From Verrucomicrobiota bacterium (GTDB lineage Bacteria > Verrucomicrobiota > Verrucomicrobiia > Opitutales > Cerasicoccaceae): a stretch of 64,000 nt of DNA. The notes under the pieces were generated by a model, which was not told the origin of the DNA, ran no database searches, and saw nothing but the letters and a program-made list of their open reading frames with translations. The stretch lies in the NCBI GenBank assembly GCA_039818205.1, contig JBCBUK010000005.1:224001-288000 (forward strand), read 5' to 3'. Positions 44,006-63,700 of the stretch are shown here, one piece after another. A program made the translations under genes and the position numbers. Position 1 is the first letter of the stretch; each line of letters starts with the position of its first letter.

Positions 44006-45994
44006 ATGAAACAAACACTCCTTTGCAGCCTCGGTCTATGCCTTGCGGCAACTACATTGTTGGCGGAAAATGCGCAAAACGACCGAAAAATGAACGTCAT
44101 CTTGATCGTCGCCGACGATATAAGCGCCCGCGAATTCCCCTTTTATGGTTCTTCGAAATGGTCTGGCGAACGCCGAGCCCAGACGCCGGTGATGGATCGC
44201 TTGGCAGAAGAAGGATGCTTCGTCGAAACCTTTTGGGCTGCAACCATTTGCAAACCGAGCCGAGTCTCGATGATGAACGGCACCTATGCCCACCAAAACA
44301 AATACTGGGACAATCGTCACATCGGGGTCGACTGCCGGACCGTCTACTCCGCCTACGAAAGCGCTCCGATCACCCTCGGTAACATGAGCCGGGACGCCGG
44401 ATATGCGAACATTTGGGTCTCTAAGACCCATATCACGGCCGGTGGCGACATCCTCAGCATGGGTTTCAACGAATGCGTACTCAACCCTGCGGAGCCGGCG
44501 CGGCATATGGGCTGGACTCCATTCGGCACTCCAGAACCAAACCCCTATCCAATTTTCCGCACCCCCAATCCTGACGACTGGGACCACGAATCCTTCTTCT
44601 TCTGGCCGGAGATACAGCTGATCAACCACCCGGACCACCCCAATGAGACCTTCACATGGGAGAAAACCGAAATCAACGACTACGCTCCAGATGTTGAAAT
44701 GGAACACATCTATGCGTTCATGGATCGATCCAAAGCCGCGGGAAAACCCTTTTTCATCCTCCACACGCCGCACCTGGGCCACCTTGCCAAAGACCCGACT
44801 CACCCCGACTTTCCAACCGTCTGGCCCGGCACTCCAGAAATTGAGTGGACGGGTGACGGCTACGTCCGCAAAGACCCCAAGATTACCAAGCTGGCAGACG
44901 GAACCTACGAAAAAGAAAACATCACGCCCGACGGGTTAAGCTACCACATCGACTATCTGGATTTTCAAATTTGGGAGATGCTGCAGAAACTCGAGGAGAT
45001 CGGTGAGCTCGACAACACCGTGATACTCTTCAGCGCGGACAACGGCACCCAATGGAATGCATGGGGCAAAGGCAATGTTCGCAGCCAGCAAGGCCAACAT
45101 GTTCCTCTCCTCATCTACGCCCCCGGCGTTGAAGGATTTGTCCAAGGACGTCAAAATATCAGCGCCGACATAACGGACTTACTGCCGACGCTTGCCGAGA
45201 TCATGGATTTCCAGTTCCCTGAAGGCTACGACAAGCTCGACGGTCAAAGCCTCTGGCCTTACCTCACGGGTGAGGCGGATCATCACCGCGACTACATTTA
45301 CTCAATGCGGATTGAAACCCAGATGATTCGCAATGACAAAGTCATGCGCGACGGGCATGGAACATGGTATGATGTCAACCAGCGCCCTGGAGACTTCGAG
45401 AGCTTCACCAAGCTCGACGATCTACCGGAAGGAGAATACAAAGACACCTTGCTCGCCGAAAAGGCTAAGCTCGAACCGATGCTCGCGCAGTACGACCTTT
45501 ACGACATTGAATCCGAAGCACCGAAACCGCCGGCTGATGCCGATAAAGATGGCATTGCGGACTGGTTTGAAGAGCGGCACGGCGACCTTAAGCCCAACGC
45601 AGATCCCGATAAGGATGGTGTCAGTAACTACCTTGAATACATTCATGCCGGTGATCCCCACGACCCAAGCTTACCGACTCAGGAACAATTGCCCCACGCG
45701 ATCGAGCTATCCGACGCACAAGGCAACTACCTGGGCCTGCAGTTCGTGCGGCGGGAAGAGCTGGGGCCCGACTATTGGTTTTTAATCGAGGGGTCAGCCG
45801 ATGGCGAGGAATGGACGACTGATGGCGTCATCCAACAGCACACGCTTCGGTCCAATGGGGACGGAACTGAGCGGGTCATTGCACGCATCGCCGCCGACAA
45901 AGACAAAGCAAACCTGTCCGAGATGCGCTTAACGGTTCAGAAGCCTCGCGAACGGAAGGCACGCAAATACACCTACTTGCTCAAAAAAGACTAG
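44006..45994 (+). CDS. Secreted family S1 sulfatase-like hydrolase with a PVC-type C-terminal domain
   Basis: Signal peptide, NVILIVADD, CKPSR and FSADNG. C-terminal DADKDGIADW...DPDKDGVSNYLEY...IEGSADGEEW module. Confidence 0.88.
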   Translation: MKQTLLCSLGLCLAATTLLAENAQNDRKMNVILIVADDISAREFPFYGSSKWSGERRAQTPVMDRLAEEGCFVETFWAATICKPSRVSMMNGTYAHQNKYWDNRHIGVDCRTVYSAYESAPITLGNMSRDAGYANIWVSKTHITAGGDILSMGFNECVLNPAEPARHMGWTPFGTPEPNPYPIFRTPNPDDWDHESFFFWPEIQLINHPDHPNETFTWEKTEINDYAPDVEMEHIYAFMDRSKAAGKPFFILHTPHLGHLAKDPTHPDFPTVWPGTPEIEWTGDGYVRKDPKITKLADGTYEKENITPDGLSYHIDYLDFQIWEMLQKLEEIGELDNTVILFSADNGTQWNAWGKGNVRSQQGQHVPLLIYAPGVEGFVQGRQNISADITDLLPTLAEIMDFQFPEGYDKLDGQSLWPYLTGEADHHRDYIYSMRIETQMIRNDKVMRDGHGTWYDVNQRPGDFESFTKLDDLPEGEYKDTLLAEKAKLEPMLAQYDLYDIESEAPKPPADADKDGIADWFEERHGDLKPNADPDKDGVSNYLEYIHAGDPHDPSLPTQEQLPHAIELSDAQGNYLGLQFVRREELGPDYWFLIEGSADGEEWTTDGVIQQHTLRSNGDGTERVIARIAADKDKANLSEMRLTVQKPRERKARKYTYLLKKD

Positions 45995-46127: not shown

Positions 46128-46796
46128 CTAGCGCCACTTTCGACGGAGAAAAGCCACAGCGGTAAACGCGGCAACAGCAATCACCATCACGGTTTTGCCA
46201 GGCTCCGGCACCTGCGTGATCTGTCCCCGGATTTCTCCAGCTCGAAAAGCAAAGGTGTGCACCTGGAAATAGAGCTCCCCCGCAAACAGCGCGTCAATCG
46301 CATCGCTGAGCGGTACGCTGTCTCCCGGCCCCCGGGAACCATCCGAACCAAAATCAAGATCACCGTCGTCCCAAAGCCCGGACAGCGATGAGTTGCTGGC
46401 ATTGACCAGGAGGTCGTCGTCATCCTCTCGGGGAAATCCGTAGACATTGAGAGCGTGAACGTCGTTCTCCCCCGCGGCCCCAAAATGAATGTGCACGGCG
46501 CGAGAGAGGTCGTCGGGACCGGAAAGCGTGGGTCGCGGAACCGTTTCTGAAAAATCGATGCCATTGAGCGAAAGCGTATAAGCGAGGGTCGGCCCATCCA
46601 AACCTCCCGTCGTCAGCAAGAGCTCCGCGACGCCTGAGGCCGTTGAGATGCCCGCAGGATCGTCGATTGGGCTACCAGGGACTACCGCCTCAGGCGTCAA
46701 TATTGCCTCAAAGCGATACATGGCTGCCGACATCGAAGCACTCAGCCCGATGAACAGGCAGATAAAAACGAGGAGTCGCACGTTGTTTGATACCAT
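46128..46796 (-). CDS. CHRD-domain protein with PEP-CTERM sorting signal
   Basis: Signal peptide, VHIHFG and LYFQVHT...GEIRGQI. C-terminal VPEP, then a TM segment and RRKWR. Confidence 0.9.
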   Translation of the reverse strand: MVSNNVRLLVFICLFIGLSASMSAAMYRFEAILTPEAVVPGSPIDDPAGISTASGVAELLLTTGGLDGPTLAYTLSLNGIDFSETVPRPTLSGPDDLSRAVHIHFGAAGENDVHALNVYGFPREDDDDLLVNASNSSLSGLWDDGDLDFGSDGSRGPGDSVPLSDAIDALFAGELYFQVHTFAFRAGEIRGQITQVPEPGKTVMVIAVAAFTAVAFLRRKWR

Positions 46797-47023: not shown

Positions 47024-47039
47024 TGGCATGGCATGTGCT
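47024..47039 (+). promoter_or_regulatory. Sigma54 (-24/-12) promoter of the importer operon
   Basis: TGGCATGGCATGTGCT matches TGGCACG-N4-TTGCW with exact GG/GC spacing, 41 nt before the SBP start codon. Confidence 0.7.
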
Positions 47040-47043
47040 TTCA

Positions 47044-47071
47044 GTATTATGATTTTCCAAAAACGTAATAC
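47044..47071. promoter_or_regulatory. NikR-type operator 1 (GTATTA-N16-TAATAC)
   Basis: Perfect 6-bp inverted half-sites with a 16-nt spacer, the geometry of the E. coli NikR site GTATGA-N16-TCATAC. It overlaps the predicted sigma54 transcription start. Confidence 0.78.
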
Positions 47072-47080
47072 CGCTTAATC

Positions 47081-48082
47081 ATGAAAATGCATATACTATC
47101 AAATGTATCTCGCCTATTGGCAATCGCTGCCTTGGGTTTTGCCTCCACAACGCTCCACGCAAAAGAACCCCTGAAAATCGCCTATAGCGATTGGCCAGGT
47201 TGGGTTGCCTGGGAAATTGGCATCAAGAAAGGCTGGTTCGAAGAAGCTGGCGTCGATGTCGACTTCCTTTGGTTTGACTACGTTGCATCGATGGATGCTT
47301 ACGTGGCTGGCAAGGTCGACGCGGTATCAATGACCAATGGTGATGCGTTGGTCACTGGCGCCACCGGGAAGCCATCGGTCGGCATTATTCTGAATGACTT
47401 CTCCAACGGCAATGACATGATTGTCGGCGGCCCGGGAGTTGATTCGATCAAGGACTTGAAGGGCAAGAAGGTCGGCGTTGAAGAAGGCTTTGTTTGCCAC
47501 CTGCTTCTGCTCAAAGGGTTATCGGATAACGGTATGTCCGCTGACGATGTGACCATCGTCAACACACCAACCAACGAAACGCCCCAGGTGCTTGCTTCGG
47601 GCGCTGTCGCAGCAATTGGCGCATGGCAGCCGAACTCAGGTGAAGCCTTGAAAGCGACGCCAGGCTCTTCACGCATTTATTCATCGGCTGATAGCCCAGG
47701 TATCATCTATGACTTCCTTTTCGTTTCTCCGGAGTCGTTGGAGACCCGTCGCGATGACTGGATGAAAGTGGTTGGCGTCTGGTATCGCATCGTCGACTAC
47801 TTAAAGGACGAAGACAATATCGACGAAGCGCTCGAGATACTCTCATCACGCGTCAACTTGAAGCCTTCAGAGTATGAGCCGCTGTTTATTGGCACCCACA
47901 TCCTCTCGCTCGATGAAGCGCTTGAGCGCTGGAAAAAAGGCGACGGCCTCGGCAGCGTCTACGGTTCTACTGACTTTGTTGATGACTTCAACGTGAAGTT
48001 TGAGGTCTATGAGGAGCCACTCAATACATCTAAGTATTTAGATCCGAGTCTGACAAAAGAATATGCGAAGTCCGCGAAGTAG
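47081..48082 (+). CDS. NitT/TauT (SsuA/THI5-like) ABC substrate-binding protein; predicted guanidine/amine-type ligand
   Basis: Signal peptide, [33 protein letters not shown] and [13 protein letters not shown]. The ligand is inferred from gene context only. Confidence 0.85.
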
Positions 48083-48109
48083 GGAATCGTGGTATCGTTA
48101 AAATAGGTA

Positions 48110-48147
48110 GCTTTGGCACCAAGCCGGATAAGGCTTGGTGCCAAGGC
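48110..48147 (+). other. Intercistronic 16-bp hairpin (mRNA stabiliser or attenuator) after the SBP gene
   Basis: GCTTTGGCACCAAGCC(ggataa)GGCTTGGTGCCAAGGC, with no U tract on the plus strand. Confidence 0.65.
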
Positions 48148-48173
48148 AAAACCACTGCTGCACTACAACTACT

Positions 48174-49571
48174 ATGTCCAAATTCGATCCATGGTTGGCG
48201 ATACGCAAACCACTGTCGCCACAGCGACAAGCACTACTCACGGTCGTTTCATTCCTACTGCCGATCTTTGTTTGGTGCATTGTCAGCTACATACCGTGGC
48301 TCTGGCATCCGGACATGGTTGTTACAGTCTCCGCCGATCGCCATGATGTCACCACCGTCTACTCGGTTGGCGATCGATTACCACGTCACAAAGAAAGCGA
48401 AGACGACTTTGCCTTTGTCGATTTCGTCGAAGATGTTCGCGAGCGTAACGAAGAAATTCAAGCTGCCCGCGATTCTGGAGAGCCGATGGAAAGCTCCCGT
48501 CGCGCGAACAAGAAAGTTCTGCGTCACCTGGCACCGGTTGGCATTGCCGAAGGCTGGCTAACACGGGACCAGGCCACTGATGATACGGCAATCTACACGC
48601 TTTGGGGAGAGATTGCGCGGGGTGAAAAACAACCGTCCAAAGTCCAACTCTCCCAAGAGAATTTGGCAGTCGTCCGGGACAACTGGAGTAAGGTCGGAGC
48701 GATCAGCGAAACCTACGATTCGAAGAAAATCCCGACGGAAATTCTCCTCAATTTAATTCCACAAGGCAAACCATCCAATCCCGTATTTGTACCCGCACCG
48801 CACGAGGTTGTTCAAACGGGCATTTATGATTGGACGCACCAACGCGACCCAGACAAGCCGGCGATGTTCGAGCGCTACGGTCACTCGTTGACCATTGTCT
48901 TTAGCGGCTTCCTGCTTTCCTGCTTATTTGGCGTCCCACTCGGGATCTTAAGCGGAACCTACGACTTTTTTGCCAAAATTGTTGAGCCCTTTACTGATTT
49001 CTTCCGCTACATGCCTGCCCCGGCATTCAGCACAATATTGGTCGCCATTTTATCGGTGTATGACGCGCCGAAAATCGGCCTGGTTTTTCTCGGCACTTAC
49101 TTCCAAATGGTGTTGGTCATTTCCAACACGACGCGAACCTTAGACCGCTCGCTTCTCGAAGCTGCCCAAACCCTGGGCGCCAAGAGCAAAGACATGATGT
49201 TCCGAGTCATCATCCCAGGCATCATGCCAAAGCTCTACAATGACCTTCGCATTTTGCTCGGCTGGGCATGGACTTGGCTCGTGATCGCAGAACTGATCGG
49301 AACCAAGTCAGGCTTGACCGAGTTCATTGAGACGCAGGGCCGTTTTCGGAATTTCGACAGTGTCTACCCAACGATCATCATCATTGGCCTAACCGGCTAC
49401 GTGACCGACCAAATTCTCGCCGCCCTGCGCCCGCTTTTCTTCCCGTGGGATCCGCAGCATTCTAGTCAGAAGCTCAATGTGATCATCCGCTTTTTCAAAT
49501 GGCTCACGAACTCGGAGTGCTACGTAAAGTCCGAGCAAGACACCAAAACACTAACCTCCAACGACCAATAG
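48174..49571 (+). CDS. NitT/TauT ABC permease with a large inserted soluble loop
   Basis: [22 protein letters not shown] motif [10 protein letters not shown] and [14 protein letters not shown]. The ATG at 48174 is preferred. Confidence 0.9.
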
Positions 49572-49581
49572 AAGGCTTCCC

Positions 49582-50478
49582 ATGATTGATGAATTGCAAT
49601 TACCGAGCTATCGGGAACAAAGCCCAGAAGTTGCCAGCCGTTTCAAGTCCATCTATGAGCGACCCGTTAAGCTGGAGGTCAAAGGGTTAGGCCGAACCTT
49701 CAACTCGAACAAGGGTACTGTTCGTGCGCTCCACGATATCAGCTTCAACGTTCACCGCCGCGAATTCATCTCGGTCATTGGGCCATCTGGCTGCGGTAAG
49801 TCGACCTTGATCCGTATTTTGGCAGGCCTAGATTTCCCGACATCAGGCGAGGCACTGCTCGACGGTAAAACAATCTTTGGCCCTGGTCGTGACCGCGGAA
49901 TGGTTTTTCAAGGGTATACGCTTTTTCCTTGGTTAACCGTCAAGAAGAACGTGATGTTCGGTCTCGAAGTGTCTGGCAGGACAGGATCATCTGTAGAAGC
50001 GGAAGCCCGCTCCTGGATTGAGATCGTCGGCTTGGCCGGGTTTGAAAATGCCTATCCAAGCCAACTTTCAGGGGGCATGAAACAACGCGTGGCGATCGCC
50101 CGATCCCTTGCGAATAATCCAAGCATGCTGTTCATGGACGAACCGTTTGGCGCCTTGGATGCCCAAACGCGGTGCCAGATGCAATCTTATCTCCTCCAGA
50201 TTTGGCGCAACGTTGATGTCACGATCATGTTTGTGACGCACGATCTGGATGAGGCGATTTACCTTTCCGACCGCATCCTCGTGCTCAAAGCCAAGCCCGG
50301 GGAGATCAACGAGTTCATCGAAGTTCCAGTTCCCCGCCCACGCTCGGTTGACCAACTCCTTTCGCCAACCTTCCTCGCAACCAAAAAGCGTCTGGAAGAA
50401 CTGATTCACCCAGAGGGAACGGAGATCAAGGAGCTCCCGGTAAAACGGTTCGTATCGGCTGACGAGGAAATTGAATGA
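49582..50478 (+). CDS. NitT/TauT ABC ATP-binding protein
   Basis: [27 protein letters not shown] and FVTHD. Confidence 0.95.
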
Positions 50479-51245
50479 CCGGCGCCAAGGCATCAAGTTC
50501 ATGGGAACACCTGACCTGGCCGGAGATTGGCCAGCGGCTGGAAAGCGGCCAAGACGCTGCGATCCTTCCCGTGGGTGCAACCGAACAACATGGCCCCCAC
50601 TTGGGCGTCGGCATGGACACGGCCTTGGCTGAACGACTGGCGCTCGCCGTATCGGCGTCGACTGGCGTTCCCTGTCTGCCAGCGCTCCCCTATGGTTGTT
50701 CAATAGGGCATTCTCACCGCTGGCCAGGCACCTTGGCGCTCAACCCGAAAACGCTCATTGATGTCATCGCCGACATTGGCCGTTGGTTCTACAAGAGTGG
50801 AGGCCGTCGCCTCTTTCTTGTCAACGGGCACGTAGGCAACCGTGCTCCCTTGCGCTGTGCGCTCGAAGTACTCCGAGCGGAATGTGAAGACTTCAAGATC
50901 GCGATTTTTACCACCGGCGACATCAGCGACCGCGTCGCGGCAGCGTTTTCTCAAGACGCAGCAGACTGGCATGCAAATGCGGCCGAAACGGCCCTTATGA
51001 TGCATCTTAGCCCAGAATCCGTTCGATTCGATCGGGTCCAGGACGCCGATGATCCGGATCGCACCAACGATTGCGTTTTTGCCCACCCGGTAAACCGAAC
51101 AAGCCTTAACGGTGTGACCGGCAAGCCATCGACGGCGACTTCCGCAATGGGCGAACAGCTGTTTGCGATCATGGTCGATGACCTCAGTGAACACATCATG
51201 AAGGGCCTGCAGGAGGCGTCGCCCCTCGAATTCCCCTACAACTAA
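50475..51245 (+). CDS. Creatininase-fold amidohydrolase of unknown substrate
   Basis: [13 protein letters not shown]...DT, VNGHVGN and [12 protein letters not shown] overlap with the ATPase gene. Confidence 0.88.
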
Positions 51246-51262
51246 GCCACAAGGAATTTACG

Positions 51263-52681
51263 ATGAACTTGACCGAGTATACCGCACTGCCCTTTCAGAA
51301 ATCTCAGGGAAACGCCTATGGCACACTGCCGGGTGACGAAGAAATCAACGCCGTTCGCAACACCTTGGCTGAGGCAGGAGTAAAATACGTAACCGGTGCC
51401 TATGTCGACATTCATGGCGTCCCCAAAGGTAAAGTCGTTCCGCTGTCGCATTTTGAGAGCTTTGCCAAAGGATCGGAGCTCTACACGGGCTACGCGCTCG
51501 ATGGATTGGGCCAGCTTCCAAATGACGATGAAATCTGCTCGATTCCAGATCTGGGCAACATCGTTCAGCTTCCTTGGCAGCCGGAGATGGCCTGGATGCC
51601 GGCCGACAATGGATTCAAGGGGGAGCCCTACGAAGTTAACACTCGTGTCATTCTCCAGAAGGTTCTCAAGAAAGCAGAGTCGATGGGCTTCGGTTTCAAC
51701 CTTGGTATCGAATGCGAGTTATTTGTCCTGCGCAAGCTTGCCGATGGCACTATTGAAATTCCAAATCCTGAGGACAAGCAGGTAAAGAGCTGCTACGACC
51801 TCAACGGGTTCATGGCCCGCTTTGACTGGCTGGACAAAATGGCAACCACCATCGATGCCCTCGGGTGGGACCTCTATTCCTTCGACCACGAGGACGCGAA
51901 TTCTCAATTCGAATTCGATTTCAAGTATGCTGATGCCCTGACCATGTGTGATCGGTTCATCTTCTTTCGCTTGATGGCTAAACAGTATGCCCAAGAAGAA
52001 GGCTTAGTTGCTTCATTTATGCCCAAACCCTTTGCCGACAAAACCGGCAGCGGTGCCCACTTCAATATGTCGCTGTTTGACCTGGAGAGCGGGTCCAATC
52101 TTTTCGCCGATAGCAACGACACTCGCGAACTCGGACTCAGTAAACTCGGCTATCAATTCTGCGCGGGAATCCTCAAGCACGGACCAGCGCTGTGTGCCGC
52201 CTTTGCGCCAACCGTGAACAGCTACAAGCGCCTCGTCCGCCGCGGCCTAATGGCCTACTACTCATGGGCGCCGGTATTCAATTCCTACGGCAGCAACAAC
52301 CGAACCAACTCCTTACGCATACCGATGGACGGAGGCCGGGTCGAGTCGCGCAACGCCGACGCATCCTGCAACCCCTATTTGGCGGCCACGCTAGCCTTGG
52401 CAGCTGGACTTCAAGGGATCGAAGAAGACCTCGATCCCGGAGAGCCCCAGGAGGACAACCTCTATGCGCTTAGCAAGGAGCAGCTGCATTCGCGCGGGAT
52501 CGATGAATTGCCTCGGAGTTTGCTGGAGGCAGTCGAAGCTTTTGCCGAAGACCCGTTCGTCGCCGAGGTCCTTGGAGATGGCCTGCGAAATGAATTTATT
52601 ACCTACAAATCTGAGGAATGGCGCCAGTTTCATCAACGGGTTCACGCATGGGAAATTGATGAATATTTGCTCAAATTTTGA
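51263..52681 (+). CDS. glnT: GlnT/GmaS-clade glutamine-synthetase-like gamma-glutamyl ligase
   Basis: [30 protein letters not shown] (GmaS-like rather than HHEVA), FMPKPF, NSYKRL, NRTNSLR and [15 protein letters not shown]. Confidence 0.85.
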
Positions 52682-52688
52682 TCCCGCG

Positions 52689-52716
52689 GTATTAACAATT
52701 TGCCAAAAATTAATAT
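52689..52716. promoter_or_regulatory. NikR-type operator 2 (GTATTA-N16-TAATAT)
   Basis: Same half-sites and 16-nt spacer as operator 1, with a similar TTT..CCAAAAA spacer. It ends 36 nt upstream of the NikR-like gene. Confidence 0.75.
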
Positions 52717-52752
52717 TGAATTGATCCCTGGAAACGCTAATCCATCAACCTT

Positions 52753-53202
52753 ATGACGGACCCCATTGAGAGAATCAGCATATCGATGCCGAAGCGCCTA
52801 ATCGAACGATTGGACGATATGAATGCGCGCCGGGGTTTCGATAGCCGCTCTCAGGCAATCGCTTCGATGGTCGAACAGCAGCTGGTTGAATACGATGAAA
52901 GCCTCGGGGAAGAGGTCATGACTGGAACCATCACCATCGTCTATGACCAGTCAAAGAACAATTTGAAGAAACGCTTAGCGGAAATCGAATACGAGAACAT
53001 TGCCGAGGTGATTAGCTCGCTGCACGTGCTGCTCGAGAATGAGCACACCATGGAGGTCATTCTGGTCCAAGGTCCGGGCAAAAAACTACGCCACATCGCA
53101 GACCAACTAGTTTCCTGCAAAGGGGTAAAGAATGGAACCATGAGCCTCCACAGTGCCCTTATTCCACCGCTTCATTCGAAATCAATTAGCAAAAAGAAAT
53201 AA
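52753..53202 (+). CDS. nikR: NikR-like ribbon-helix-helix/ACT regulator lacking the canonical nickel site
   Basis: [19 protein letters not shown]...SRSQAI. ACT-like domain GTITIVYD...[21 protein letters not shown]...KGVKNG. Confidence 0.85.
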
Positions 53203-53930
53203 TGTCTGAAACTCCTCCCCTCTTATATAACCGCCGAATCGGTGGCGGCCAAATGTGGTCAAAGGTCATCGGCCGAGGCAAATGCCTCAAGATAACCGAC
53301 CTCGAAGGCGGTGCCAACGTCGGTATGATGCTCTACAATGCCAACGAGAAAACAGAGCGCTACAACATGCCCGATACCCTCAAAGGGCAAAAGATCTTTT
53401 ACCTAAGGGCCCCCTACTGCCTGCACTCCGACATGGGCCGGCTCTTTGCCTCGATTGTCGACGATACGGTTGGCTGGCACGACACCGTCTGTGGCTCAAC
53501 CAATGCTACCATGGTCGAATCCAAGTATGGTACGAACGACTATCAAGATGCGCGGAACGATTGGTACCGCAATGGACGTGACTGCTTCCTGATCGAACTT
53601 GGTAAATGGGGAATGGGCGAGCGCGACCTGATCCCGAATATCAACTGGTTTAGTAAAGTCAGCCCTGACGAATCGGGCAAACTCACCTACCAGAGCGGCA
53701 ACTCACCAGCTGGCGCAAGCGTGACCCTGCGCTTCGAGTTGGACACCCTGGTTGTGCTTAATACCTGCCAGCACCCGCTGGACTCAAACCCGACCTACGA
53801 CCCCAAACCGGTTCAACTCGATGTCCTTCCGGCGCCAAGTGTGAGCGAGGAAGACCCCTCTCGGTCGATTCGGCCGGAGAATGGACGCGCGTTCCAAAAC
53901 ACTGAAGAATACAACCGCCTACGCTTCTAA
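53202..53930 (+). CDS. cgdA: Urea-carboxylase-associated protein 1 (DUF1989), carboxyguanidine deiminase subunit A
   Basis: [34 protein letters not shown] and NTCQHPLD. Confidence 0.88.
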
Positions 53931-53933
53931 CTT

Positions 53934-54578
53934 ATGAGCAACTTTACCGAAAGCAGTCTTATTGAATCCGACGCCGTTTATAGTAAAGTCGTACGGGCCG
54001 GTGACTTTTGGATCCACCAGATCAATGCCGGCCAAACGCTGCGCATCGTCGACCTCGAAGGAAACCAAGCCGCAGACACTCTCTTTTACAACGCCGATGA
54101 TCCGGACGACCGCTACAGTGCGTGCGATACGATTGCCGCACAACAAGCCCTCTACCTAACTTCGGGTACGCGGCTCATGTCCACCCGTGGAACTGAACTG
54201 CTGAAGATCGTCGCCGATACCTGTGGTCGGCACGACACCTTAGGCGGTGCCTGTTCGCGCGAAAGCAACACGATGCGCTATGCGATGGACAAAGAGCCCA
54301 TGCACGCGTGTCGCGATAGCTTTTTGCGCGGGGTGCAAAGTTGGAGCCCTCACCTCGATAAGCGAGATGTCACCTGCAACATCAACTTTTTCATGAATGT
54401 TCCCGTGTCTCCCGATGGCCAACTTGATTTTGCCGATGGCGTTTCAGCCCCAGGCCGGTACGTAGAGATGCAAGCGACCAGTAATGTGATCTGCTTGATA
54501 TCCAACTGTCCGCAACTCAACAACCCGTGCAACGCCTACAATCCCACACCAGTTCAGGTCTTGATCTGGGACTCCTGA
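53934..54578 (+). CDS. cgdB: Urea-carboxylase-associated protein 2 (DUF1989), carboxyguanidine deiminase subunit B
   Basis: [41 protein letters not shown] and [17 protein letters not shown]. Confidence 0.9.
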
Positions 54579-54591
54579 AACCCCGACCCAT

Positions 54592-57500
54592 ATGTTCAAA
54601 ACGATCCTGATTGCCAATCGAGGAGAGATTGCTTTGCGCATCTTGCGCACCGCCCAGCGGATGAACATTCGCACGGTAGCAATTTACTCCGAAGCAGACT
54701 CGCAAGCACCACACGTTTACCAGGCCGATGAAGCCATTTGCGTTGGCCCACCATCCGTCGCAGAGAGCTACCTCAACCAAGAGAAGATTCTGCAAGCAGC
54801 GTTGCAGTGCGGCGCCGAAGCGATCCATCCTGGCTATGGCCTGCTAAGCGAGTCCGCCGAGTTTGCGCAAGCTTGTGCTAACCGTGGTATTGTCTTTATC
54901 GGTCCGCGAGTCGAGCACCTCCAACAGTTCGGGCTAAAGCACGCAGCTCGCGAACTGGCTTTGGCTTCTGCCGTACCTTTGGTACCAGGGACCGACCTTC
55001 TCGGTTCGCTCCAGACGGCAAAGCAAGAGGCGGAGAAGATTGGATTTCCGGTGATGATGAAAAGCACTGCCGGTGGTGGTGGCATCGGCATGGAGGTTTG
55101 CCGCTCGATGGACGACCTCGATGCATCCTTCGATCGCGTCCAGCGCCTCGGCCAATCCAACTTTGGGCAAGGTGGAATTTTTCTTGAGAAATACGTTGAG
55201 CGAGCCCGCCACCTTGAAGTGCAAATCTTTGGAGATGGCAAAGGCAATGCCGTGTCTTTAGGAGTCCGGGACTGCTCGAGTCAGCGGCGAAACCAAAAAG
55301 TTATCGAGGAAACGCCGGCATGCGGGGTTCCCGAAAGCGTGATCAATGGACTGCAGGCGGCCGCGATTCGGCTGACCGAAAGTGTCGGGTATCTCTCAGC
55401 GGGCACTGTTGAGTATATCTACGACGTCAACGCCAGCACGTACTACTTCCTCGAAGTCAACACGCGCCTGCAAGTCGAACATGGCGTGACGGAAGAAGTG
55501 GTCGGAGTCGACCTCGTCGAGTGGATGATTCGGCAAGCAGCTGACGATCTGCCCAACCTGGACTTACCCAGTGAGCGTCCAGGTGGACACAGCATCCAGG
55601 CCCGAATTTATGCGGAGGATCCGGACAAGAATTTCCAGCCCTCAAGCGGCCTATTAAATCATGTGTCGTTCCCCGAGAGCATTCGATGCGACCATTGGAT
55701 CTCTTCTGGCACGGAGGTCACCAGCCACTATGATCCACTACTGGCGAAGCTGATCGTGCACGCCCCGACTCGCGAAGAGGCAATTGCAGAGCTCCATGCG
55801 GCGCTTGAGCAAACCGCCATCTACGGAATTGAGACGAACCGCGAATATTTGAGTGCCCTGGTCCAGAGCGATCTCCTTCGGGAGAATAAGATGACCACGC
55901 AATCGCTCAAAGCATTTCAGTATGAAACCCTGACCATCGATACGCTTAAGTCCGGTGTTCAAACGACTGTGCAGGACTATCCGGGACGCGTCGGCTACTG
56001 GGAGGTCGGGGTCCCGCCTTCGGGCCCGATGGACAGCCTTTCTTTTCGCTTGGGCAACCGGCTTTTGGGTAACGATGAATCAGCGGCCGGCCTCGAAACA
56101 ACACTGGAAGGCCCGACTCTACGGTTCAACGCCCCAACCACAATCGTGCTAACGGGCGCGGAGAGCGATGCGAAGCTTAATGGGCAAGCGCTGAGCTTCT
56201 GGGAGCCGATTGAAATCGCGTCCGACGATGTTCTGGAAATGGGACAGGTCACCGGTATCGGTATGCGTACTTATTTGTGTATCGCTGGTGGGTTAAACGT
56301 CGCGGACTACCTGGGCAGCAAATCAACCTTTACGCTTGGGAAGTTTGGCGGGCACGGCGGCCGCCCACTCCAAACCGGTGACGTTCTCCACGTCAATCGC
56401 TCAAGCAATGCGATCGCGGCCAAAGCCTTACCCGCCGAGTATCGCCCCAAGATATCAAACCAGTGGACTATCAACGTACTCTATGGTCCACACGGGGCAC
56501 CCGATTTCTTTACCGATGATGATATCGAGACGTTCTTCGCCACCGAGTGGGAGGTGCATTTTAACTCGGCCCGGACTGGGGTTCGCCTGATCGGACCCAA
56601 GCCGCAATGGGCCCGTCCCGACGGCGGCGAGGCCGGACTTCATCCATCCAATATTCACGACAATGCCTACGCGATCGGAGCAATCGATTTTACGGGAGAC
56701 ATGCCAGTCATTCTCGGCCCAGACGGGCCAAGTCTCGGTGGCTTTGTTTGCCCAGCGACTGTTGCCTTTGCCGACCTCTGGAAGATCGGACAGCTTCGGC
56801 CAGGTGATCGAATCCGATTCGAATGCATTGACCAAAGTAGCGCTGCGCTACTGGTAAAAAACCAAGAGAACCTCGTCAACGCGCTTCGCAACGAGGAAAC
56901 TCCAGCAGTGCCGTGTATTACTCCAAAGGCAACGGATCTCATCCTCACAGAGACGGGCGACGGCAACGAGCGAATGGTCATTCGGCAATCCGGAGATGAC
57001 AATGTATTGATCGAATTCGGACCTCCACTCCTGGACCTCCGACTGCGATTTATCGTCCACGTATTCTATGAGCAGCTACTCAAGAATCGACTAGAAGGAG
57101 TCATCGACCTCACACCCGGAATTCGTTCTCTCCAAATTCATTTCGATCGGGCCGCGTTGGAACTGGATTGTGTTCTGGAGTGGCTGCTCGCCCATCACGC
57201 GGACCTCAAATCTCTAGAGGAACAGAAAGTATCCTCGCGCATCGTCCACTTACCGCTTTCGTGGGACGACCCTTCGACGCAGCTAGCTGTTTCTCGCTAC
57301 ATGCAAACGGTTCGTCCCGATGCGCCTTGGTGCCCGAATAACCTGGAGTTTATCCGCCGAATCAATGGACTTGAATCGGTCGATCAGGTGCGGGAAATCG
57401 TCTTCAACGCCAGCTATGTTGTACTCGGCTTAGGGGACGTCTACCTTGGCGCTCCAGTCGCAACTCCTTTGGACCCGCGTCATCGGTTGATCACGACAAA

Positions 57501-58182
57501 GTATAACCCAGCCCGAACCTGGACTCCGGAGAATGCCGTGGGAATTGGCGGAGCGTATATGTGTGTCTACGGTATGGAAGGCCCGGGCGGGTATCAGTTT
57601 GTCGGTCGCACCCTTCAAATGTGGAACCGCTATGGAAGCGTCGATGCATTTCATGACGACAAGCCCTGGTTACTTCGGTTTTTTGACCAGATTCGGTTTT
57701 TCCCAGTTTCGGCCGATGAACTCACGCAGATCCGAAAAGACTTTCCCCAGGGCAGGTATCCGATAAAAATTGAGCAGAGCTCCTTTGACCTCCACGAATA
57801 CGAGGCGATGCTCGCCAAGAACGATGCCGATATCCAGGCGTTCAGGAGTCAACAGCGTGAGGCATTCGATGCGGAACGTGGGCGCTGGAGCGACACGGAC
57901 CAGCGTTCGGACCTGGACGAGGTAGCCGTGGATTCGACAAGCGATATCGAGCTACCTGAAGGCTCTCAGGCTATTGAGAGCTCAGTATCGGGTACGGTAT
58001 ACAAAGTGCTAGTTAACGAGGGTGACCACGTTCAAAAGGGCCAAACGACCCTGGTGCTCGAGTCGATGAAAATGGAAATTTCGGTATGCAGCCCTTATGC
58101 GGGCGAAGTGATGCATGTCGCCGTTGCAAATGGTGGCTTCGTCAAACCTGGCGATCGGCTTTTGGCGGTTCGCTCAGACTAA
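54592..58182 (+). CDS. uca: Urea-carboxylase-family enzyme, predicted guanidine carboxylase (Asp type)
   Basis: Biotin carboxylase [10 protein letters not shown]...[10 protein letters not shown]. Carboxyltransferase [22 protein letters not shown] (D699). Biotinyl motif ESMKME. Directly follows cgdAB. Confidence 0.92.
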
Positions 58183-58241: not shown

Positions 58242-58934
58242 ATGTCTTCGTCAAAATCGAATACTAAGAAAAATCGAAGTGAAGATATCTTTAATATCCT
58301 GCAAAGTCGGATCCTCTCCTGGGAGTATCAACCTGGGCATCGATTGAAAGAGGATGAGCTTTGCCGAGAGTTCGATGTCAGCCGAATTCCCATCCGGGAA
58401 GCTCTTAGCCGCCTCAGTCAAATCCATTTGGTGGAGCGCAAGGCCCACGTCGGCTGTTCGGTAAAGCGTTGGACACTGGAGGAAATTAATGAACTCTATG
58501 AGTTTCGTGTCGCATTGGAGACCTATGTTGTTGAGGCGCTTGCCCAGAAAGAGGATCCCATTGCCGAACTAAAAGAACTCAAAAAGGAATGGCAGGGCTA
58601 CCTAACCGAAACGGATGACACCAGTTTTGCCCAAAAGAATTGGTCTACCCGGGACGAACACTTTCATGAGACGCTGGCCGCTGCACTTGGAAACCAACAG
58701 ATTCTAAATTCGCTGCAAGACGTGAACTCTCGGCTTCGGTTTTTGCGCGTCCAGGACATCACGACGCAAGAGGTTTTAACGAAAAGCAGTAAGCAGCATA
58801 TCTCCATTATCAACGCGATTCGACGCAGCGACGACGAGTCCGCGAAAAAGTTGATGCGAACCAATATTCAGATGGGTAAGGGCAACGTAAAGAGCGCTCT
58901 ACAGCAAGTTCTCATGCGCTCCTATGAAGATTAG
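58242..58934 (+). CDS. GntR-family (FCD) transcriptional regulator
   Basis: YQPGHRLKEDELCREFDVSRIPIREAL, ELYEFRVALE, DEHFHETL and QHISII. Confidence 0.9.
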   Translation: MSSSKSNTKKNRSEDIFNILQSRILSWEYQPGHRLKEDELCREFDVSRIPIREALSRLSQIHLVERKAHVGCSVKRWTLEEINELYEFRVALETYVVEALAQKEDPIAELKELKKEWQGYLTETDDTSFAQKNWSTRDEHFHETLAAALGNQQILNSLQDVNSRLRFLRVQDITTQEVLTKSSKQHISIINAIRRSDDESAKKLMRTNIQMGKGNVKSALQQVLMRSYED

Positions 58935-58944
58935 AATGACCGCG

Positions 58945-60723
58945 CTAGCTGCCTGCTAGGCTGGACATATACCGCCGCCACGACTGTAGATGGGTAATCT
59001 CAGTGGAACCTTCCACAGCGCAAGCCTCGGCGATAAAGCCCATGCACTCGACATCGCCCTTAAGGAAAACACGACCGAGACCGAGCGGAGCGCCGATGCC
59101 CTCCAAGAAACTCCCAAGCGTTTCACGCGGCAGCTGCCAAACCTCAACAGCGATGCTACTCCCGTGCATGGAATCTCTAACCAAAGCGGGCCGTCGGGGC
59201 TCGCCTTCGAGGGCAAACAACCGGTACATCGGCAAGGTCTCCGTCTTACGAACAAACCGACCGTTCCGCTCTAGCAGCTGAAAATTCAGTGGCATATCTT
59301 TCATGTGCGCACCACAAACCACGATCGGAACCAGACTATCCAAATTCTTTGATTCAGCAATGACTTCCGGTGGGCTTAACTTACTCGTACCCATGGTCAA
59401 ACCTGTCTTTGCGTGCAGCTCACCCGCAATCTCCAACAGGTCAAGATCCCTACCCGAACCGGCAAATAGTGTTACACCATGCGGAAGGTTGTCCTTACGA
59501 AACGCTACTGGTGTTGCAACTGCAGCAAGGTCAAAAAGGTTCATGAAATTCGTGTAGTAACCCAACTCAGAATTCAGCGCGAGAGGCTCGTTGAGAACTT
59601 GCTCAGTCGTGTAGACGGTGCCGCATGTCGGAGTCATGATTCCATCAACTTGTTCTAGAACCTCGTCACCCAATCGCTTCAAGTCTTTTAGTTTATACTC
59701 AGCCCGAAAATAGTCGACCGCTGACGCCCGGTTACCCTGCTCAATGATCTGACGAGTGACCGGGTGGAGAATGTCTGGCCGTTCGGCGAGAATACTTTCT
59801 AACACAGAGTAACGTTCAGCCAACCAAGGCCCCTCATACAGCAAGCGAGCGGCATCTTTGAAGGGCTCAAAGTCAATCTCAACGACGTCATAACCAAGTT
59901 CGCGAACTAAATCGATTGCCTTGTCAAAAACGATCTTGGTCTGTTCATCACCGAAAAACTCCAACTGCTCCGATTTCGGTATCCCAATTGATTGTCGGCG
60001 ACTACCAGCCTGCAGCGAAATGCTCACCGCATAAGGATCTTCGGCATCGTAGCTTGCAGCAACTTCCAAGACCGCTTGAGCATCAGCATTTGAAAGCGCA
60101 AATATTGAAACGCAATCCAAACTGCGACAGGCGGGGACTAATCCCGTCGTGCTCAAAAGACCTCGACTTGGTTTTAGTCCAACAATGTTATTCAAAGAAG
60201 CCGGGATTCTTCCCGATCCCGCCGTATCAGTCCCAAGTGCAAACGAAACCAAGCCTTTGGACACCGCGACCGCAGAACCAGAACTGGATCCGCCCGGAAT
60301 GTATCGTGGATCAAACGGATTCGATGGAATGCCGTAGGGAGAGCGAGTTCCCACCAGGCCCGTCGCGAACTGATCAAGATTCGTTTTACCGATCGGAATC
60401 GCTCCGGCATCAATTAGTTGTTGAACAACGTAGGCGGAATTGGTCGGAGTGTATGCATAGTCGGGACACGCGGCAGTTGTCGGAACGCCTGCCAGATCTA
60501 GGTTATCCTTAACTGCAAACGGTATACCATAGAGCGGGTGTGTTTCCGGTGACTTGTCTTTCAGCTTTTCAACATAGACGGCTATTTCCTCACGTGAGAG
60601 GACGTAGATCCAGATCGCGGGATCCTCAACTCGAATGCGGTCCAAGACACAGTCAAGCACCGCTTGCGGATGGATCTCCCGATTGGCGTATTGCTTAATC
60701 AAGTTATCAATTGAAATATTCAT
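58945..60723 (-). CDS. atzF: Allophanate hydrolase
   Basis: PLYGIPFAVKDNLD, GKTNLDQFATGLVGTRSPYG, GGSSSGS, GTDTAGSGRIP and C-domain VVCGAHM. The ATG at 60723 is preferred. Confidence 0.93.
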   Translation of the reverse strand: MNISIDNLIKQYANREIHPQAVLDCVLDRIRVEDPAIWIYVLSREEIAVYVEKLKDKSPETHPLYGIPFAVKDNLDLAGVPTTAACPDYAYTPTNSAYVVQQLIDAGAIPIGKTNLDQFATGLVGTRSPYGIPSNPFDPRYIPGGSSSGSAVAVSKGLVSFALGTDTAGSGRIPASLNNIVGLKPSRGLLSTTGLVPACRSLDCVSIFALSNADAQAVLEVAASYDAEDPYAVSISLQAGSRRQSIGIPKSEQLEFFGDEQTKIVFDKAIDLVRELGYDVVEIDFEPFKDAARLLYEGPWLAERYSVLESILAERPDILHPVTRQIIEQGNRASAVDYFRAEYKLKDLKRLGDEVLEQVDGIMTPTCGTVYTTEQVLNEPLALNSELGYYTNFMNLFDLAAVATPVAFRKDNLPHGVTLFAGSGRDLDLLEIAGELHAKTGLTMGTSKLSPPEVIAESKNLDSLVPIVVCGAHMKDMPLNFQLLERNGRFVRKTETLPMYRLFALEGEPRRPALVRDSMHGSSIAVEVWQLPRETLGSFLEGIGAPLGLGRVFLKGDVECMGFIAEACAVEGSTEITHLQSWRRYMSSLAGS

Positions 60724-60772
60724 TGCTGAAATCGGATTCACAAATACTTGGGAGATCTGGCTGGGAACGCAA

Positions 60773-63700
60773 TCACTCCGGCTTGATACCAACTAACTGC
60801 TGGCCTGTTCGCACCGGCGAACCCTCCTCAGTCAGAATCTGCGCAACTTTACCGCTAACGGTCGCCTGCACCGAAATCTCCATCTTCATTGCCTCGACAA
60901 TCAGGATAGTTTGCCCGGCTTCGACAACTTCATCTACGCCCACGACAATCTTCCAAACGTTGCCATTGATATGGCTGCAAACTGCTTCTACGCCATCAGG
61001 AAGGTCGGCTTCTTCGGGCGGCTCGGGCTCAAATGAGTCTGTCACGGCATTCTGGCCAGCCGCTTCCCACCGTTCCCGCTCCTCTTCGAATGCTTTCTGT
61101 TGTCGCGCCTTAAACGCGGCAATGGACTCAGCGTTTTCATCCAGAAACTCGTTGTACTCCTTCAGGCTAAAGTCCTGCTCCTCGATTTTAACCTCAAACG
61201 TGCCAGCGTGGAAGTCACGTCGCATCTCGACGAGTTCTTCCTCTTCGACCGGATAGTATCGCACCTGGTCGAAAAACCTAAGAAGCCAGGGTTTTCCTTC
61301 CTCGAAGGGTCCCGTCTTGAGATAGCGATTCCAAATGGGAACTGTTTGACCAACGAGCTGGTATCCACCGGGGCTATCCATCCCATAGATGCACATATAG
61401 ACGCCGCCGATCCCCACCGTACCTTCGGCCGTCCAAGTGCGAGCAGGATTATACTTGGTCGTTAGCAAACGGTGTCGCGGATCAACCGGCACCGCCGCCG
61501 GCGCGCCCAGGTAAACGTCACCAAGCCCCATGACCATGTAGCTCGTACTGAAAACGATATCTTTCACCTCATCGACTGATTCAAGACCGTTGATGCGACG
61601 CATAAATTCGATATTGGACGGGCACCACGGAGCATCCTTACGGACAGATTTCTCATACTTGCGAACTGCAGCCTGAGTCATCTCATTGTTCCAGCTCATC
61701 GGCAGATGAAGGACACGGGTCTTGATCACCATTTCCTCAATTGGTGGAAGCTCTTTCTCCGCCGCAACCAGCAGGTCCAGAAGCGCCTGCAGCCGAATCA
61801 CCCGTGAGTCGTAGTGGAGCTGCAATGACCGAACGCCTGGTGTGATATCGATCAGGCCCGGGATCGGATTCTTGTCGATCCAATCCATCAAGGCGTAGAT
61901 GCGGAAGCGGAAATTCAAGTCGAGAACGATGGGACCGTATTCGATTAGGAGATACTTGTCTCCGCACGGCCGGTAGTTGACCTCCACTGGCAACTCTCCC
62001 TTCGGCAGAGTCACCGCCACGCAGGGCTCACGCTCCAACCCATCAGTCAGCTCATTAACGACCGCCTGATCGAGTTGTTGAACCCCGGCGTCCTGCAGCT
62101 CCTCCAGCGTATTGGCCGCTACCTGGGTGACGCAGGTGAAGCGAATGGAATCACCCGGACGTAATTGACCAATCATCCAAAGGTCTGCTTGCACGATCGT
62201 TACTGGGCAAACGAACCCACCCAGGCTTGGTCCATCGGGTCCAAGTATAATCGGCATGTCCCCGGTAAAATTGATCGCGCCAATCGCATAAGGATTGTCG
62301 TGAATATTCGACGGGTGGAGACCTGCTTCGCCACCATCTTTACGCGCCCACTGCGGCGTACTTGGGGCAATCAACCGGATGCCGGTCCGGGCAGAATTAT
62401 AGTGGACCTCGAACGTTGATGCCAAAAATGTATCGATATCCTCTTCAGTAAAGAAATCGGGCGCGCCATGGGGACCGTAGGTTACCCGGATCTCCCACTC
62501 ATGATTATACTGGGGAATGAAGTCCCCCGGCAATTGGCGTGGGACGGTCTCTCCGACCTGATCGGGTTCCAGGAGGTGCAACACATCCCCTGGCAAGAGA
62601 GTCCGTCCACCATGGCCACCAAAGTTACCCATTGAGAAGGTCGCCTGACTGCCGAGATAAAAGGGAACATCAAAGCCACCGGCAACAGCCAGATAGGCGC
62701 GGCAACCCACAGAGGTAATCTTACCGAGCTTTAACACCGAGCCTGCCGAAACTGTCAACGTTCGCCACATCTGGACGGGCAACCCATCCAAGTCTGCCTC
62801 GATCGGAGCACCCGTGATAGCGATGCTCGCGTCTTGGTTGAACTTGAGCGTCGGCCCAATCAAAGTGATTTCGAGAGCCGCGATTCCTTCCTCATTCTGC
62901 ACCAGGCGATTGGCCAACCGAAAAGAAAGGTTATCCATTGGCCCCGATGGCGGAACCCCGATATCCCAGTACCCGATTCGGCCAGGGTAATCTTGAATGC
63001 TCGTTTGCGTTCCCGGGGTAATGACATCGACCCCGGTAGTCGGATACGAGAAGTCTTTAAGAAACGCGGTTGTGATCGTGCCTTGTTTGAAATCAGGCGT
63101 CGCCACGATTCGACTCAAGTATTCTAGATTCGTTTCGATCCCGTGCAATGCGGTGGCATCCAACGCTTCACTCAAAGAGGCGATGGCCGCTTCCCGCGAG
63201 TCCGCCTTCACGATGAGCTTAGCGAGGAGTGGATCGTAGTTTGGTGTTACCTCGGTTCCCGTGGCGATCCAGGTGTCGCAACGCACGCCTTCTGGAAACA
63301 CAACCTCTGAGAGCACGCCCGAAGACGGCTGGTAGTTCTTACGGGGATCTTCAGCGTAGATCCGAACTTGAATCGAGTGGCCAGCGGTTGTGACAGAATC
63401 AACCCCTGCGGTCGGATCCTCCCCCCCAGCCAAGGTCAACATCCATTCGACGAGATCGACGCCCGTAACTTCTTCGGTCACCCCATGCTCAACCTGCAAG
63501 CGCGTATTCACCTCGAGGAAGTAGAACTCCTCGGTATCCACATTGACCAAAAACTCGACGGTTCCCGCCGATCGATACGCAATGGATGACGCGAGTCGCT
63601 GCGCGGCCTCGGTAAGGCCCGCCCTTAAACTGTCGGAAATGTTCGGTGCAGGTGTTTCTTCAATCACCTTCTGGTTTCGGCGCTGTGCTGAACAATCTCG

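What the first reader, a model, noticed from the sequence alone, without database searches (positions are those of the whole stretch)
50475..58182. Creatininase-fold hydrolase plus GmaS-type ligase in front of the guanidine carboxylase pathway: a candidate undescribed catabolic route for substituted guanidines
Seen: importer, hydrolase, GlnT, nikR-like, cgdA, cgdB and Asp-type carboxylase are co-oriented and share operators. The hydrolase keeps the E-x-H...D, H and H-x4-E metal motifs but has GHVGN where true creatininase has GHYEN, so its substrate may differ. The ligase has the GmaS-like DHEDAN motif, yet no N-methylglutamate synthase/dehydrogenase genes are in the window. Known: carboxylase plus CgdAB convert guanidine to allophanate and ammonia, and GmaS glutamylates methylamine. 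Inference, two models: (a) an N-alkyl or acyl guanidine is hydrolysed or carboxylated/deiminated and the released amine is trapped as a gamma-glutamyl amide; (b) ligase and hydrolase form a glutamylation/deglutamylation pair that processes the imported compound before carboxylation.
Basis: partly seen in the sequence, partly recalled or inferred. Interest (0 to 1): 0.8.

Follow-up and report, generated by a model that had tools for sequence, protein, structure and literature searches.

The report
Guanidine operon's unexplained ligase–hydrolase pair
Two uncharacterised enzymes, a glutamate ligase and a metal hydrolase, sit between a predicted guanidine importer and the known guanidine-breakdown genes in many bacteria, and they likely attach guanidine to glutamate and release it again, which would be an undescribed step in how microbes use this nitrogen source.

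Summary
An ABC importer, creatininase-fold hydrolase (Crn), GS-like ligase, NikR-like regulator, cgdA, cgdB and Asp-type carboxylase are co-oriented behind a sigma-54-type promoter and two operators.

Crn and the ligase form a fixed pair (151 of 153 loci). The pair stays with the importer and needs a guanidine-destroying partner: cgdA in 47 of 50 genomes, a guanidinase in four loci. Elsewhere it sits directly behind guanidine-I riboswitches.

The hydrolase is not creatininase. The ligase is neither housekeeping GS nor orthodox GmaS: it forms its own clade and is kept beside GmaS in 11 of 11 methylotroph-type genomes checked. The importer has a plain guanidine-type pocket, and this genome has no outlet for gamma-glutamylmethylamide. 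That weakens the 'substituted guanidine, trapped amine' model.

Best guess (0.4): a make-and-break pair on gamma-glutamyl-guanidine. Methylamine trapping (0.3) remains open, because two loci put the same ligase beside mgsABC-like genes. A stand-alone third guanidine route is unlikely. No reaction is shown. Nine paper searches found no description. This scan noted the pair and the regulator before, on other genomes.

The parts
47024..47038 (+). sigma-54-type promoter (-24/-12)
   Evidence: the same motif precedes the operator in 34 of 46 related loci, background 336 of 42453 windows
47044..47071 (.). operator 1, consensus GTATTAC-N14-GTAATAC, just downstream of the -12 box
47081..48082 (+). binding protein, GimA-like, predicted to bind guanidine (W38, W41, D113, W183, D211)
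   Evidence: spacing matches GimA W59, W62, D135, F205, D233 given in PMC12704784 with a one-residue shift
48110..48147 (+). 16-bp hairpin between binding protein and permease genes
   Evidence: -33.6 kcal/mol; no shuffle control run
48174..49571 (+). ABC permease
   Evidence: PF00528
49582..50478 (+). ABC ATPase
   Evidence: PF00005
50475..51245 (+). creatininase-fold metal amidohydrolase (Crn), uncharacterised subfamily
   Evidence: PF02633 233 bits; below the CrnA, MftE and IolN cut-offs; model matches creatininase at TM about 0.8 and 30% identity
51263..52681 (+). GS-like gamma-glutamyl ligase, TIGR03105, in a clade apart from mgs-linked GmaS
52689..52716 (.). operator 2, in front of the regulator gene
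52753..53202 (+). NikR-fold regulator lacking most nickel ligands; predicted guanidine-responsive repressor
53202..53930 (+). cgdA, carboxyguanidine deiminase subunit
   Evidence: TIGR03425 319 bits, over cut-off
53934..54578 (+). cgdB, carboxyguanidine deiminase subunit
   Evidence: TIGR03424 324 bits, over cut-off
54592..58182 (+). guanidine carboxylase, Asp-type (D699, D949)
   Evidence: TIGR02712; motif; criterion from PMC11410670, applied by motif and approximate position
58945..60792 (-). allophanate hydrolase atzF, last gene of the convergent urea operon, probably shared by both routes
   Evidence: TIGR02713 over cut-off; only close copy in the genome
60773..64000 (-). second carboxylase, Asn-type (urea carboxylase); starts beyond the window, after urtABCDE-like genes
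   Evidence: the urt genes were named from their translations, not scanned

Best explanation
The two genes are a fixed, importer-linked cassette of a guanidine-use operon, and they likely work as a make-and-break pair: the ligase would use ATP to join imported guanidine to glutamate, and the hydrolase would cut the resulting gamma-glutamyl-guanidine to feed guanidine to the carboxylase. Shown here: gene order, pairing, shared control sites, catalytic residues, and dependence on a guanidine-destroying route. Known: carboxylase, CgdAB and AtzF turn guanidine into ammonia and CO2. Inferred: that guanidine is the acceptor, that Crn cuts the acyl-guanidine bond, and that the purpose is to hold and buffer a toxic cation entering faster than it is degraded. 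In relatives with added oxidases, the same pair could be the protect and deprotect steps around an N-dealkylation (inferred).
For: (1) Crn has the ligase within 2.5 kb in 151 of 153 scorable loci, 18 of 171 unscorable at contig ends; divergent subfamilies stay paired. This points to a substrate-product link. (2) The importer is co-oriented in 77 of 84 fully flanked loci, cgdA in only 42: the pair goes with import. (3) It accompanies either degradation route: cgdA in 47 of 50 genomes and 23 of 24 Methylophilaceae, or a GdmH-type guanidinase in L080, L210, L211, L262. (4) Guanidine-I riboswitches head the module in 6 of 7 loci scanned, which were chosen for lacking the regulator. (5) The binding-protein pocket equals that of operons without the pair. 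(6) mgsC is found in only 21 of 62 cassette genomes and not in this one; 11 of 11 mgs-bearing genomes checked keep their own GmaS as well; 24 of 24 Methylophilaceae Crn loci keep the ligase. (7) MgdH-like dioxygenases lie in four cassette loci (L247, L227, L084, L265), so methylguanidine may already have its own route there. (8) The bond creatininase cleaves is an acyl-guanidine (established chemistry, recalled).
Against: No enzyme is known to me to N-acylate free guanidine, and guanidinium (pKa about 13.6, recalled) is a poor nucleophile. Making and breaking one bond is an ATP-wasting cycle unless regulated. L195 and L198 place same-clade ligases, L195 with an identical 26-residue pocket signature, beside mgsABC-like and HODM genes. 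Narrow-clade ligases lack an adjacent Crn in 2 of 13 scorable loci, and G1199 has no Crn found in the genome. A class I glutamine amidotransferase, another possible deglutamylase, follows the ligase in L057/L301 (one genome), L207 and L300. The wider ligase superclade often lies in methylamine clusters. The pocket changes against GmaS (Q175 to S, N188 to D) are shared with those relatives, and the Asp also with GlnA, so they are not guanidine-specific. G329 keeps the pair without any guanidine route found.
Confidence: 0.4

Rival explanations
1. Hydrolase first. Crn splits a small substituted guanidine or urea, such as methylguanidine or an N-methylcarbamoyl-guanidine, into guanidine or urea plus a methylated amine. 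The ligase traps the amine as a gamma-glutamyl amide, which N-methylglutamate enzymes use where present.
For: GmaS catalytic residues are kept (D208, E217, R347, W335). L195 and L198 carry the pair with mgsA, B, C-like genes, a HODM demethylase and an APC permease, with no other ligase seen in those loci. Superclade relatives lie beside Tmm, Tdm, gmaS-mgs and Amt genes. True creatininases lie near the cassette in L057 and L051. The fold binds 1-methylguanidine (PDB 3a6d), and a methylguanidine amidinohydrolase activity is cited in PMC12623156.
Against: 41 of 62 cassette genomes lack mgsC by this query, including this one, so the amide would be a dead end that costs a glutamate. The ligase is never dropped beside GmaS in Methylophilaceae. 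MgdH-like genes co-occur. The importer pocket is the plain guanidine type. L195 and L198 may be one evolutionary event.
Confidence: 0.3
2. Crn is an acyl- or carbamoyl-guanidine hydrolase (a guanylurea-hydrolase analogue) that frees guanidine, and the ligase is an auxiliary glutamine synthetase that captures the ammonia released.
For: The bond type fits the fold. RhGmaS accepts ammonium, Km 8.7 mM. Superclade members lie next to Amt genes. The ligase can occur without Crn.
Against: The ligase lacks the Asp50' and Glu-flap residues (T75 and W335), and the genome has its own glnA. The ligase tracks Crn rather than cgdA: 12 of 29 Verrucomicrobiota with cgdA carry it.
Confidence: 0.12
3. A stand-alone third guanidine route: the ligase acylates guanidine and Crn cuts at the amidine carbon, giving glutamine plus urea.
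For: It needs no other enzyme and avoids a futile cycle. G329 keeps the pair with urease but with no carboxylase, cgdA or ureohydrolase found.
Against: Of 50 genomes, 47 have cgdA, G341 has a guanidinase next to the cassette and G349 has a carboxylase, leaving one. Four loci place a guanidinase beside the pair. Creatininase attacks a carbonyl, not an amidine carbon (recalled).
Confidence: 0.08

Closest known systems
Guanidine carboxylase pathway operons (Gca, CgdAB, AtzF with an ABC importer; PMC12186494, PMC11410670) and their MgdH/MgdL extension (PMC12508155)
   Same: Importer, cgdA, cgdB, Asp-type carboxylase and atzF are all present; the operon is extended by extra enzymes, as in V. boliviensis.
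   Different: The extra enzymes are a ligase and an amidohydrolase, not a dioxygenase and a lyase. Control is by a NikR-like operator rather than a riboswitch. atzF belongs to the convergent urea operon.
GmaS, gamma-glutamylmethylamide synthetase (PDB 7cql, 9qur; PMC7948447)
   Same: TIGR03105 member; D177, E179, E186, R312, K30' and the Trp flap are kept.
   Different: Only 34-41% identical to mgs-linked GmaS against 62-82% within its own clade; Q175 to S and N188 to D; separate clade; no mgs or mgd genes in the genome.
Creatininase CrnA (PDB 1j2t, 3a6j)
   Same: Fold (TM about 0.8) and all five metal or catalytic positions E, H, D, H, E, plus the catalytic His.
   Different: About 30% identity; 130 bits against a cut-off of 235; Y121, E122, W154 and W174 replaced; its own conserved DWHAN, DDPDRT and HPVNRTS motifs.
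Gamma-glutamylation catabolic routes (PuuA/PuuD, IpuC/IpuF, aniline and naphthylamine routes; recalled)
   Same: A GS-like ligase travelling with a hydrolase; Rieske or desaturase-like oxidases in some relatives.
   Different: The core module has no oxidase, and the hydrolase has the creatininase fold rather than a glutamine amidotransferase fold.

Membership tests
Creatininase CrnA (TIGR04448) | score over the curated cut-off | tested here: not met
   129.6 against 235; a true paralogue in L057 scores 328
Creatininase CrnA (TIGR04448) | substrate residues Y121, E122, W154, W174 | tested here: not met
   alignment; positions named from PDB mutant titles and recall
Creatininase-fold amidohydrolases (PF02633) | fold and two-metal site | tested here: met
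MftE (TIGR03964) | score over the cut-off | tested here: not met
   138 against 172
GmaS | TIGR03105 score; catalytic D177, E186, R312 | tested here: met
   621 bits; D208, E217, R347
GmaS | methylamine pocket Y147, Q175, D177, E179, E186, N188, K30' | tested here: not met
   5 of 7 kept; S206 and D219 in 52 of 52 core-clade rows
GmaS | groups with mgs-linked GmaS and has mgsABC/mgdABCD | tested here: not met
   separate clade of 80 rows, SH-aLRT 99, quick tree with long-branch warnings; no mgsC or soxA
GmaS | micromolar Km for methylamine | not testable with these tools
   needs an enzyme assay
Glutamine synthetase type I | Asp50' and Glu flap | tested here: not met
   T75 and W335; TIGR00653 310 against 429
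Guanidine carboxylase | Asp at the K. lactis 1330 and 1584 positions | tested here: met
   D699 and D949 by motif; 46 of 46 scorable carboxylases in cassette loci are Asp-type, 9 of 55 truncated
GimA guanidine-binding protein | W, W, D, F, D pocket | tested here: inconclusive
   four identical and F to W, by spacing only; the GimA sequence was not aligned; TIGR03427 153 against 334
NikR nickel sensor | H76, H87, H89, C95 nickel ligands (numbering recalled) | tested here: not met
   only the H87 equivalent (H91) is kept
Gamma-glutamylation catabolic routes | an oxidising step between ligase and hydrolase | tested here: not met
   no Rieske, desaturase, TIM-barrel, MgdH-like, x65 or HODM homologue in the genome at E below 1e-5 with the queries used

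The most novel reading that the evidence does not exclude
The ligase is the first enzyme that N-acylates free guanidine, making gamma-glutamyl-guanidine (5-oxo-arginine), a new metabolite that bacteria of several phyla use to hold and meter guanidine nitrogen. Crn is its dedicated acylguanidine hydrolase, and the NikR-fold protein is a protein sensor for guanidine that replaces the riboswitch.
Probability: 0.3. Interest if true: 0.85.

Novelty: new variant of a known kind. Interest (0 to 1): 0.62.

Why it matters
Guanidine is a recently recognised nitrogen source with two known breakdown routes. This cassette is common in guanidine-using bacteria: 12 of 29 Verrucomicrobiota and 23 of 36 Methylophilaceae genomes with cgdA. 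No reaction is assigned to it in the papers I could search. Two soluble enzymes and a short substrate list make the question directly testable. The answer is either new acylguanidine chemistry or a link from methylated guanidines to methylamine metabolism. It would also correct annotations: the ligase is scored as type III GS/GmaS, a marker for methylamine use, in genomes with no N-methylglutamate pathway.

Tried and rejected
No riboswitch in the window (Rfam) or in 29 Verrucomicrobiota genomes with cgdA (only 42 candidates scored per genome, strict filters).

Complex prediction of ligase with Crn: no answer; no evidence either way.

Sequencing runs: no RNA holder listed.

Longer forms of Crn: 4 hits (two with an ABC ATPase domain, one with PF00440, one with no other domain), no ligase fusion; weak evidence.

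ESM Atlas gave only automatic names.

CgdA/CgdB signatures between operons with and without the pair: none in CgdA; two CgdB columns, probably from paralogues mixed into the set.

Handling of carboxylase by-products such as N-methylallophanate: rejected, because the pair also accompanies guanidinase.

The gene after NikR in G1199 was suspected to be a ureohydrolase and is not.

Two script slips were corrected: minus-strand coordinates (redone) and the sigma-54 pattern (redone).

Three key papers were not held (Nelson 2017, Schneider 2020, Sinn 2021), and no supplements were read. Their gene-neighbourhood tables may list these genes.

The structure model gave no coordinates, so pocket geometry was not measured.
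Full report
OBSERVATION. Nine intact co-oriented genes run from 47081 to 58182 with gaps of -4 to 91 nt: binding protein, permease, ATPase, creatininase-fold hydrolase (Crn), TIGR03105 ligase, NikR-like regulator, cgdA, cgdB and a carboxylase. The carboxylase has Asp at the position that separates guanidine from urea carboxylases (D699; criterion in PMC11410670, applied by motif). A second, Asn-type carboxylase and atzF lie on the other strand after urt-like genes. Two copies of a 28-bp palindrome, at 47044 and 52689, are beyond chance and are the best matrix hits in the genome. A sigma-54-type promoter lies just upstream of the first. The genome has its own glnA. It has no mgsC, soxA/mgdC, urease or ureohydrolase.

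THE TWO ENZYMES. Crn keeps the fold and metal site of creatininase but has about 30% identity, misses the CrnA, MftE and IolN cut-offs, and has lost creatininase's substrate residues. Its best 120 hits are 59-70% identical, with invariant DWHAN, DDPDRT-like and HPVNRTS motifs. The ligase's closest structures are GmaS. Mapped on the RhGmaS residues in PMC7948447, it keeps D177, E179, E186, R312, K30' and the Trp flap, lacks the two GS ammonia residues, and changes Q175 to S and N188 to D. It falls in a clade of 80 rows apart from mgs-linked GmaS (quick tree with long-branch warnings). Identity is 62-82% inside the core clade (74 rows; five divergent rows left out) and 34-41% to GmaS. So it is a gamma-glutamyl-amide ligase of unknown acceptor.

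DISTRIBUTION. In 92 genome loci, Crn was found in 91, the ligase in 85, importer genes in 73-75, cgdAB and carboxylase in 53, the regulator in 51 (many loci end at contig edges). Over 171 genome and metagenome loci, the ligase lies within 2.5 kb of Crn in 151 of 153 scorable cases. Sampled from the ligase side, 11 of 13 scorable narrow-clade hits have Crn adjacent (one of the 11 read). The pair is optional for guanidine catabolism: 12 of 29 Verrucomicrobiota with cgdA have it (a thirteenth TIGR03105 hit, G123, is a GmaS). The cgdA regions fetched from 13 genomes without it show the same importer family, often the regulator, and cgdAB-carboxylase. The reverse dependence is strong: cgdA in 47 of 50 cassette genomes and in 23 of 24 Methylophilaceae. 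Of the three exceptions, G341 has a GdmH-type guanidinase right behind the regulator, G349 has a carboxylase, and G329 has neither. Three more loci join the pair to a guanidinase (L210, L211, L262). When the operon is split, the pair stays with the importer: importer co-oriented in 77 of 84 fully flanked loci, cgdA in 42. Related genomes are not independent samples.

REGULATION. The operator precedes the binding-protein gene in 48 of 80 upstream regions (background 90 of 3018 windows), a guanidine-I motif in 6, and never both. Rfam confirms guanidine-I riboswitches at the head of the module in L037, L061, L066, L075, L085 and L087 (6 of 7 loci scanned), none of which has the regulator in the locus. 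The regulator has lost most nickel ligands (E. coli numbering recalled). It is predicted to be a guanidine-responsive repressor on a sigma-54 promoter (34 of 46 loci). Earlier notes of this scan say the same for other genomes.

WHAT IS IMPORTED. The binding protein has W38, W41, D113, W183 and D211, matching the spacing of the docked guanidinium site of GimA (KD 97 nM, PMC12704784). The pocket motifs are the same in operons with and without the pair. They change in eight operons that add a Rieske oxygenase set (L031, L045, L049, L060, L065, L091, L103, L106), while the ligase pocket there does not change. So added oxidases seem to deal with bulkier guanidines, and the pair acts on something common to all the operons.

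MECHANISM. Two orders are possible. If Crn acts first, the gamma-glutamyl amide needs an outlet. mgsC is found in 21 of 62 cassette genomes (G123 dropped for lacking the cassette, G325 not counted at 36% identity) and in none of the 12 high-quality Verrucomicrobiota. Where it is present a separate GmaS is kept, in 11 of 11 genomes checked. If the ligase acts first, Crn is the outlet, nothing else is needed, and the bond is the acyl-guanidine type that creatininase cleaves. I therefore favour a make-and-break pair on gamma-glutamyl-guanidine as a holding pool (0.4); every chemical step of it is inferred. The contrary evidence is real. L195 and L198 put the same ligase type beside mgsABC-like, HODM and permease genes (MgsC 55-65% and MgsA about 31% identical to canonical copies). 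A glutamine amidotransferase follows the ligase in three settings. G1199 has the ligase without Crn. The wider superclade lies beside Tmm, Tdm, gmaS-mgs, Amt and Rieske genes. Methylamine-type trapping therefore stays at 0.3, an auxiliary GS plus acylguanidine hydrolase at 0.12, and a stand-alone third route at 0.08.

LITERATURE. Searches pairing these enzymes or the regulator with guanidine genes showed no description in their listings. The term glutamylguanidine had no occurrence in the 40 of 43 papers listed. What I saw: PMC7948447 passages and section 4; PMC12508155 the first of seven parts and passages; PMC12186494 parts 2 and 3 of 5; passages only of PMC12704784, PMC11410670, PMC12623156, PMC12625717, PMC2667541, PMC4222082 and PMC9533460. 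Nelson 2017, Schneider 2020 and Sinn 2021 were not held, no supplements were read, and subscription journals are mostly outside the library.

VERDICT. A real, conserved and apparently undescribed two-enzyme extension of guanidine catabolism; the reaction is unproven. New variant of a known kind; interest 0.62. The scan has met the pair and the regulator before on other DNA.

Noticed in passing
L275:4569-9194 (G309) and L057:648-6795: Clusters of desaturase-like, SDR and true creatininase genes; in L275 they follow a guanidine-I motif and a binding protein. A candidate oxidative route from creatinine towards guanidine.
   Followed up: partly
L319, L323, L324, L329, L320-L322, L326, L327: A wider TIGR03105 superclade sits beside canonical gmaS-mgs, Tmm, Tdm, Amt-like transporters, glutamine amidotransferases or Rieske oxygenases; it may be a second methylated-amine ligase, for example for dimethylamine.
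   Followed up: partly
L247:3226-4041, L066:6265-7032 and five more loci: An uncharacterised protein with a faint HRI1 hit lies beside MgdH-like dioxygenases or desaturase-like genes; it may be an MgdL-type lyase, but MgdL itself was not compared.
   Followed up: partly
L031, L045, L049, L060, L065, L091, L103, L106: Operons adding Rieske, PuuE-like, FGE-domain, SDR and TIM-barrel genes carry a binding protein with a changed pocket, suggesting another imported guanidine.
   Followed up: partly
window 58242-58934 (+): GntR/FCD regulator between the two convergent carboxylase operons; target unknown.
   Followed up: no
G000 C2:543723 and C2:267646: Next-best operator-like sites, 19.6 and 17.7 bits against 33.2 and 21.0; the genes behind them were not examined.
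   Followed up: no
G000 C15:102274-102669: A second, distant NikR-fold gene (30% identity) that also lacks the histidine motif.
   Followed up: no
L187 (G361): Crn, the ligase and cgdA all appear broken in this one genome, that is, they decay together.
   Followed up: partly
window 46128-46796 (-) and 44006-45994 (+): A CHRD-domain protein with a PEP-CTERM-like tail and a sulfatase flank the operon; unrelated.
   Followed up: no
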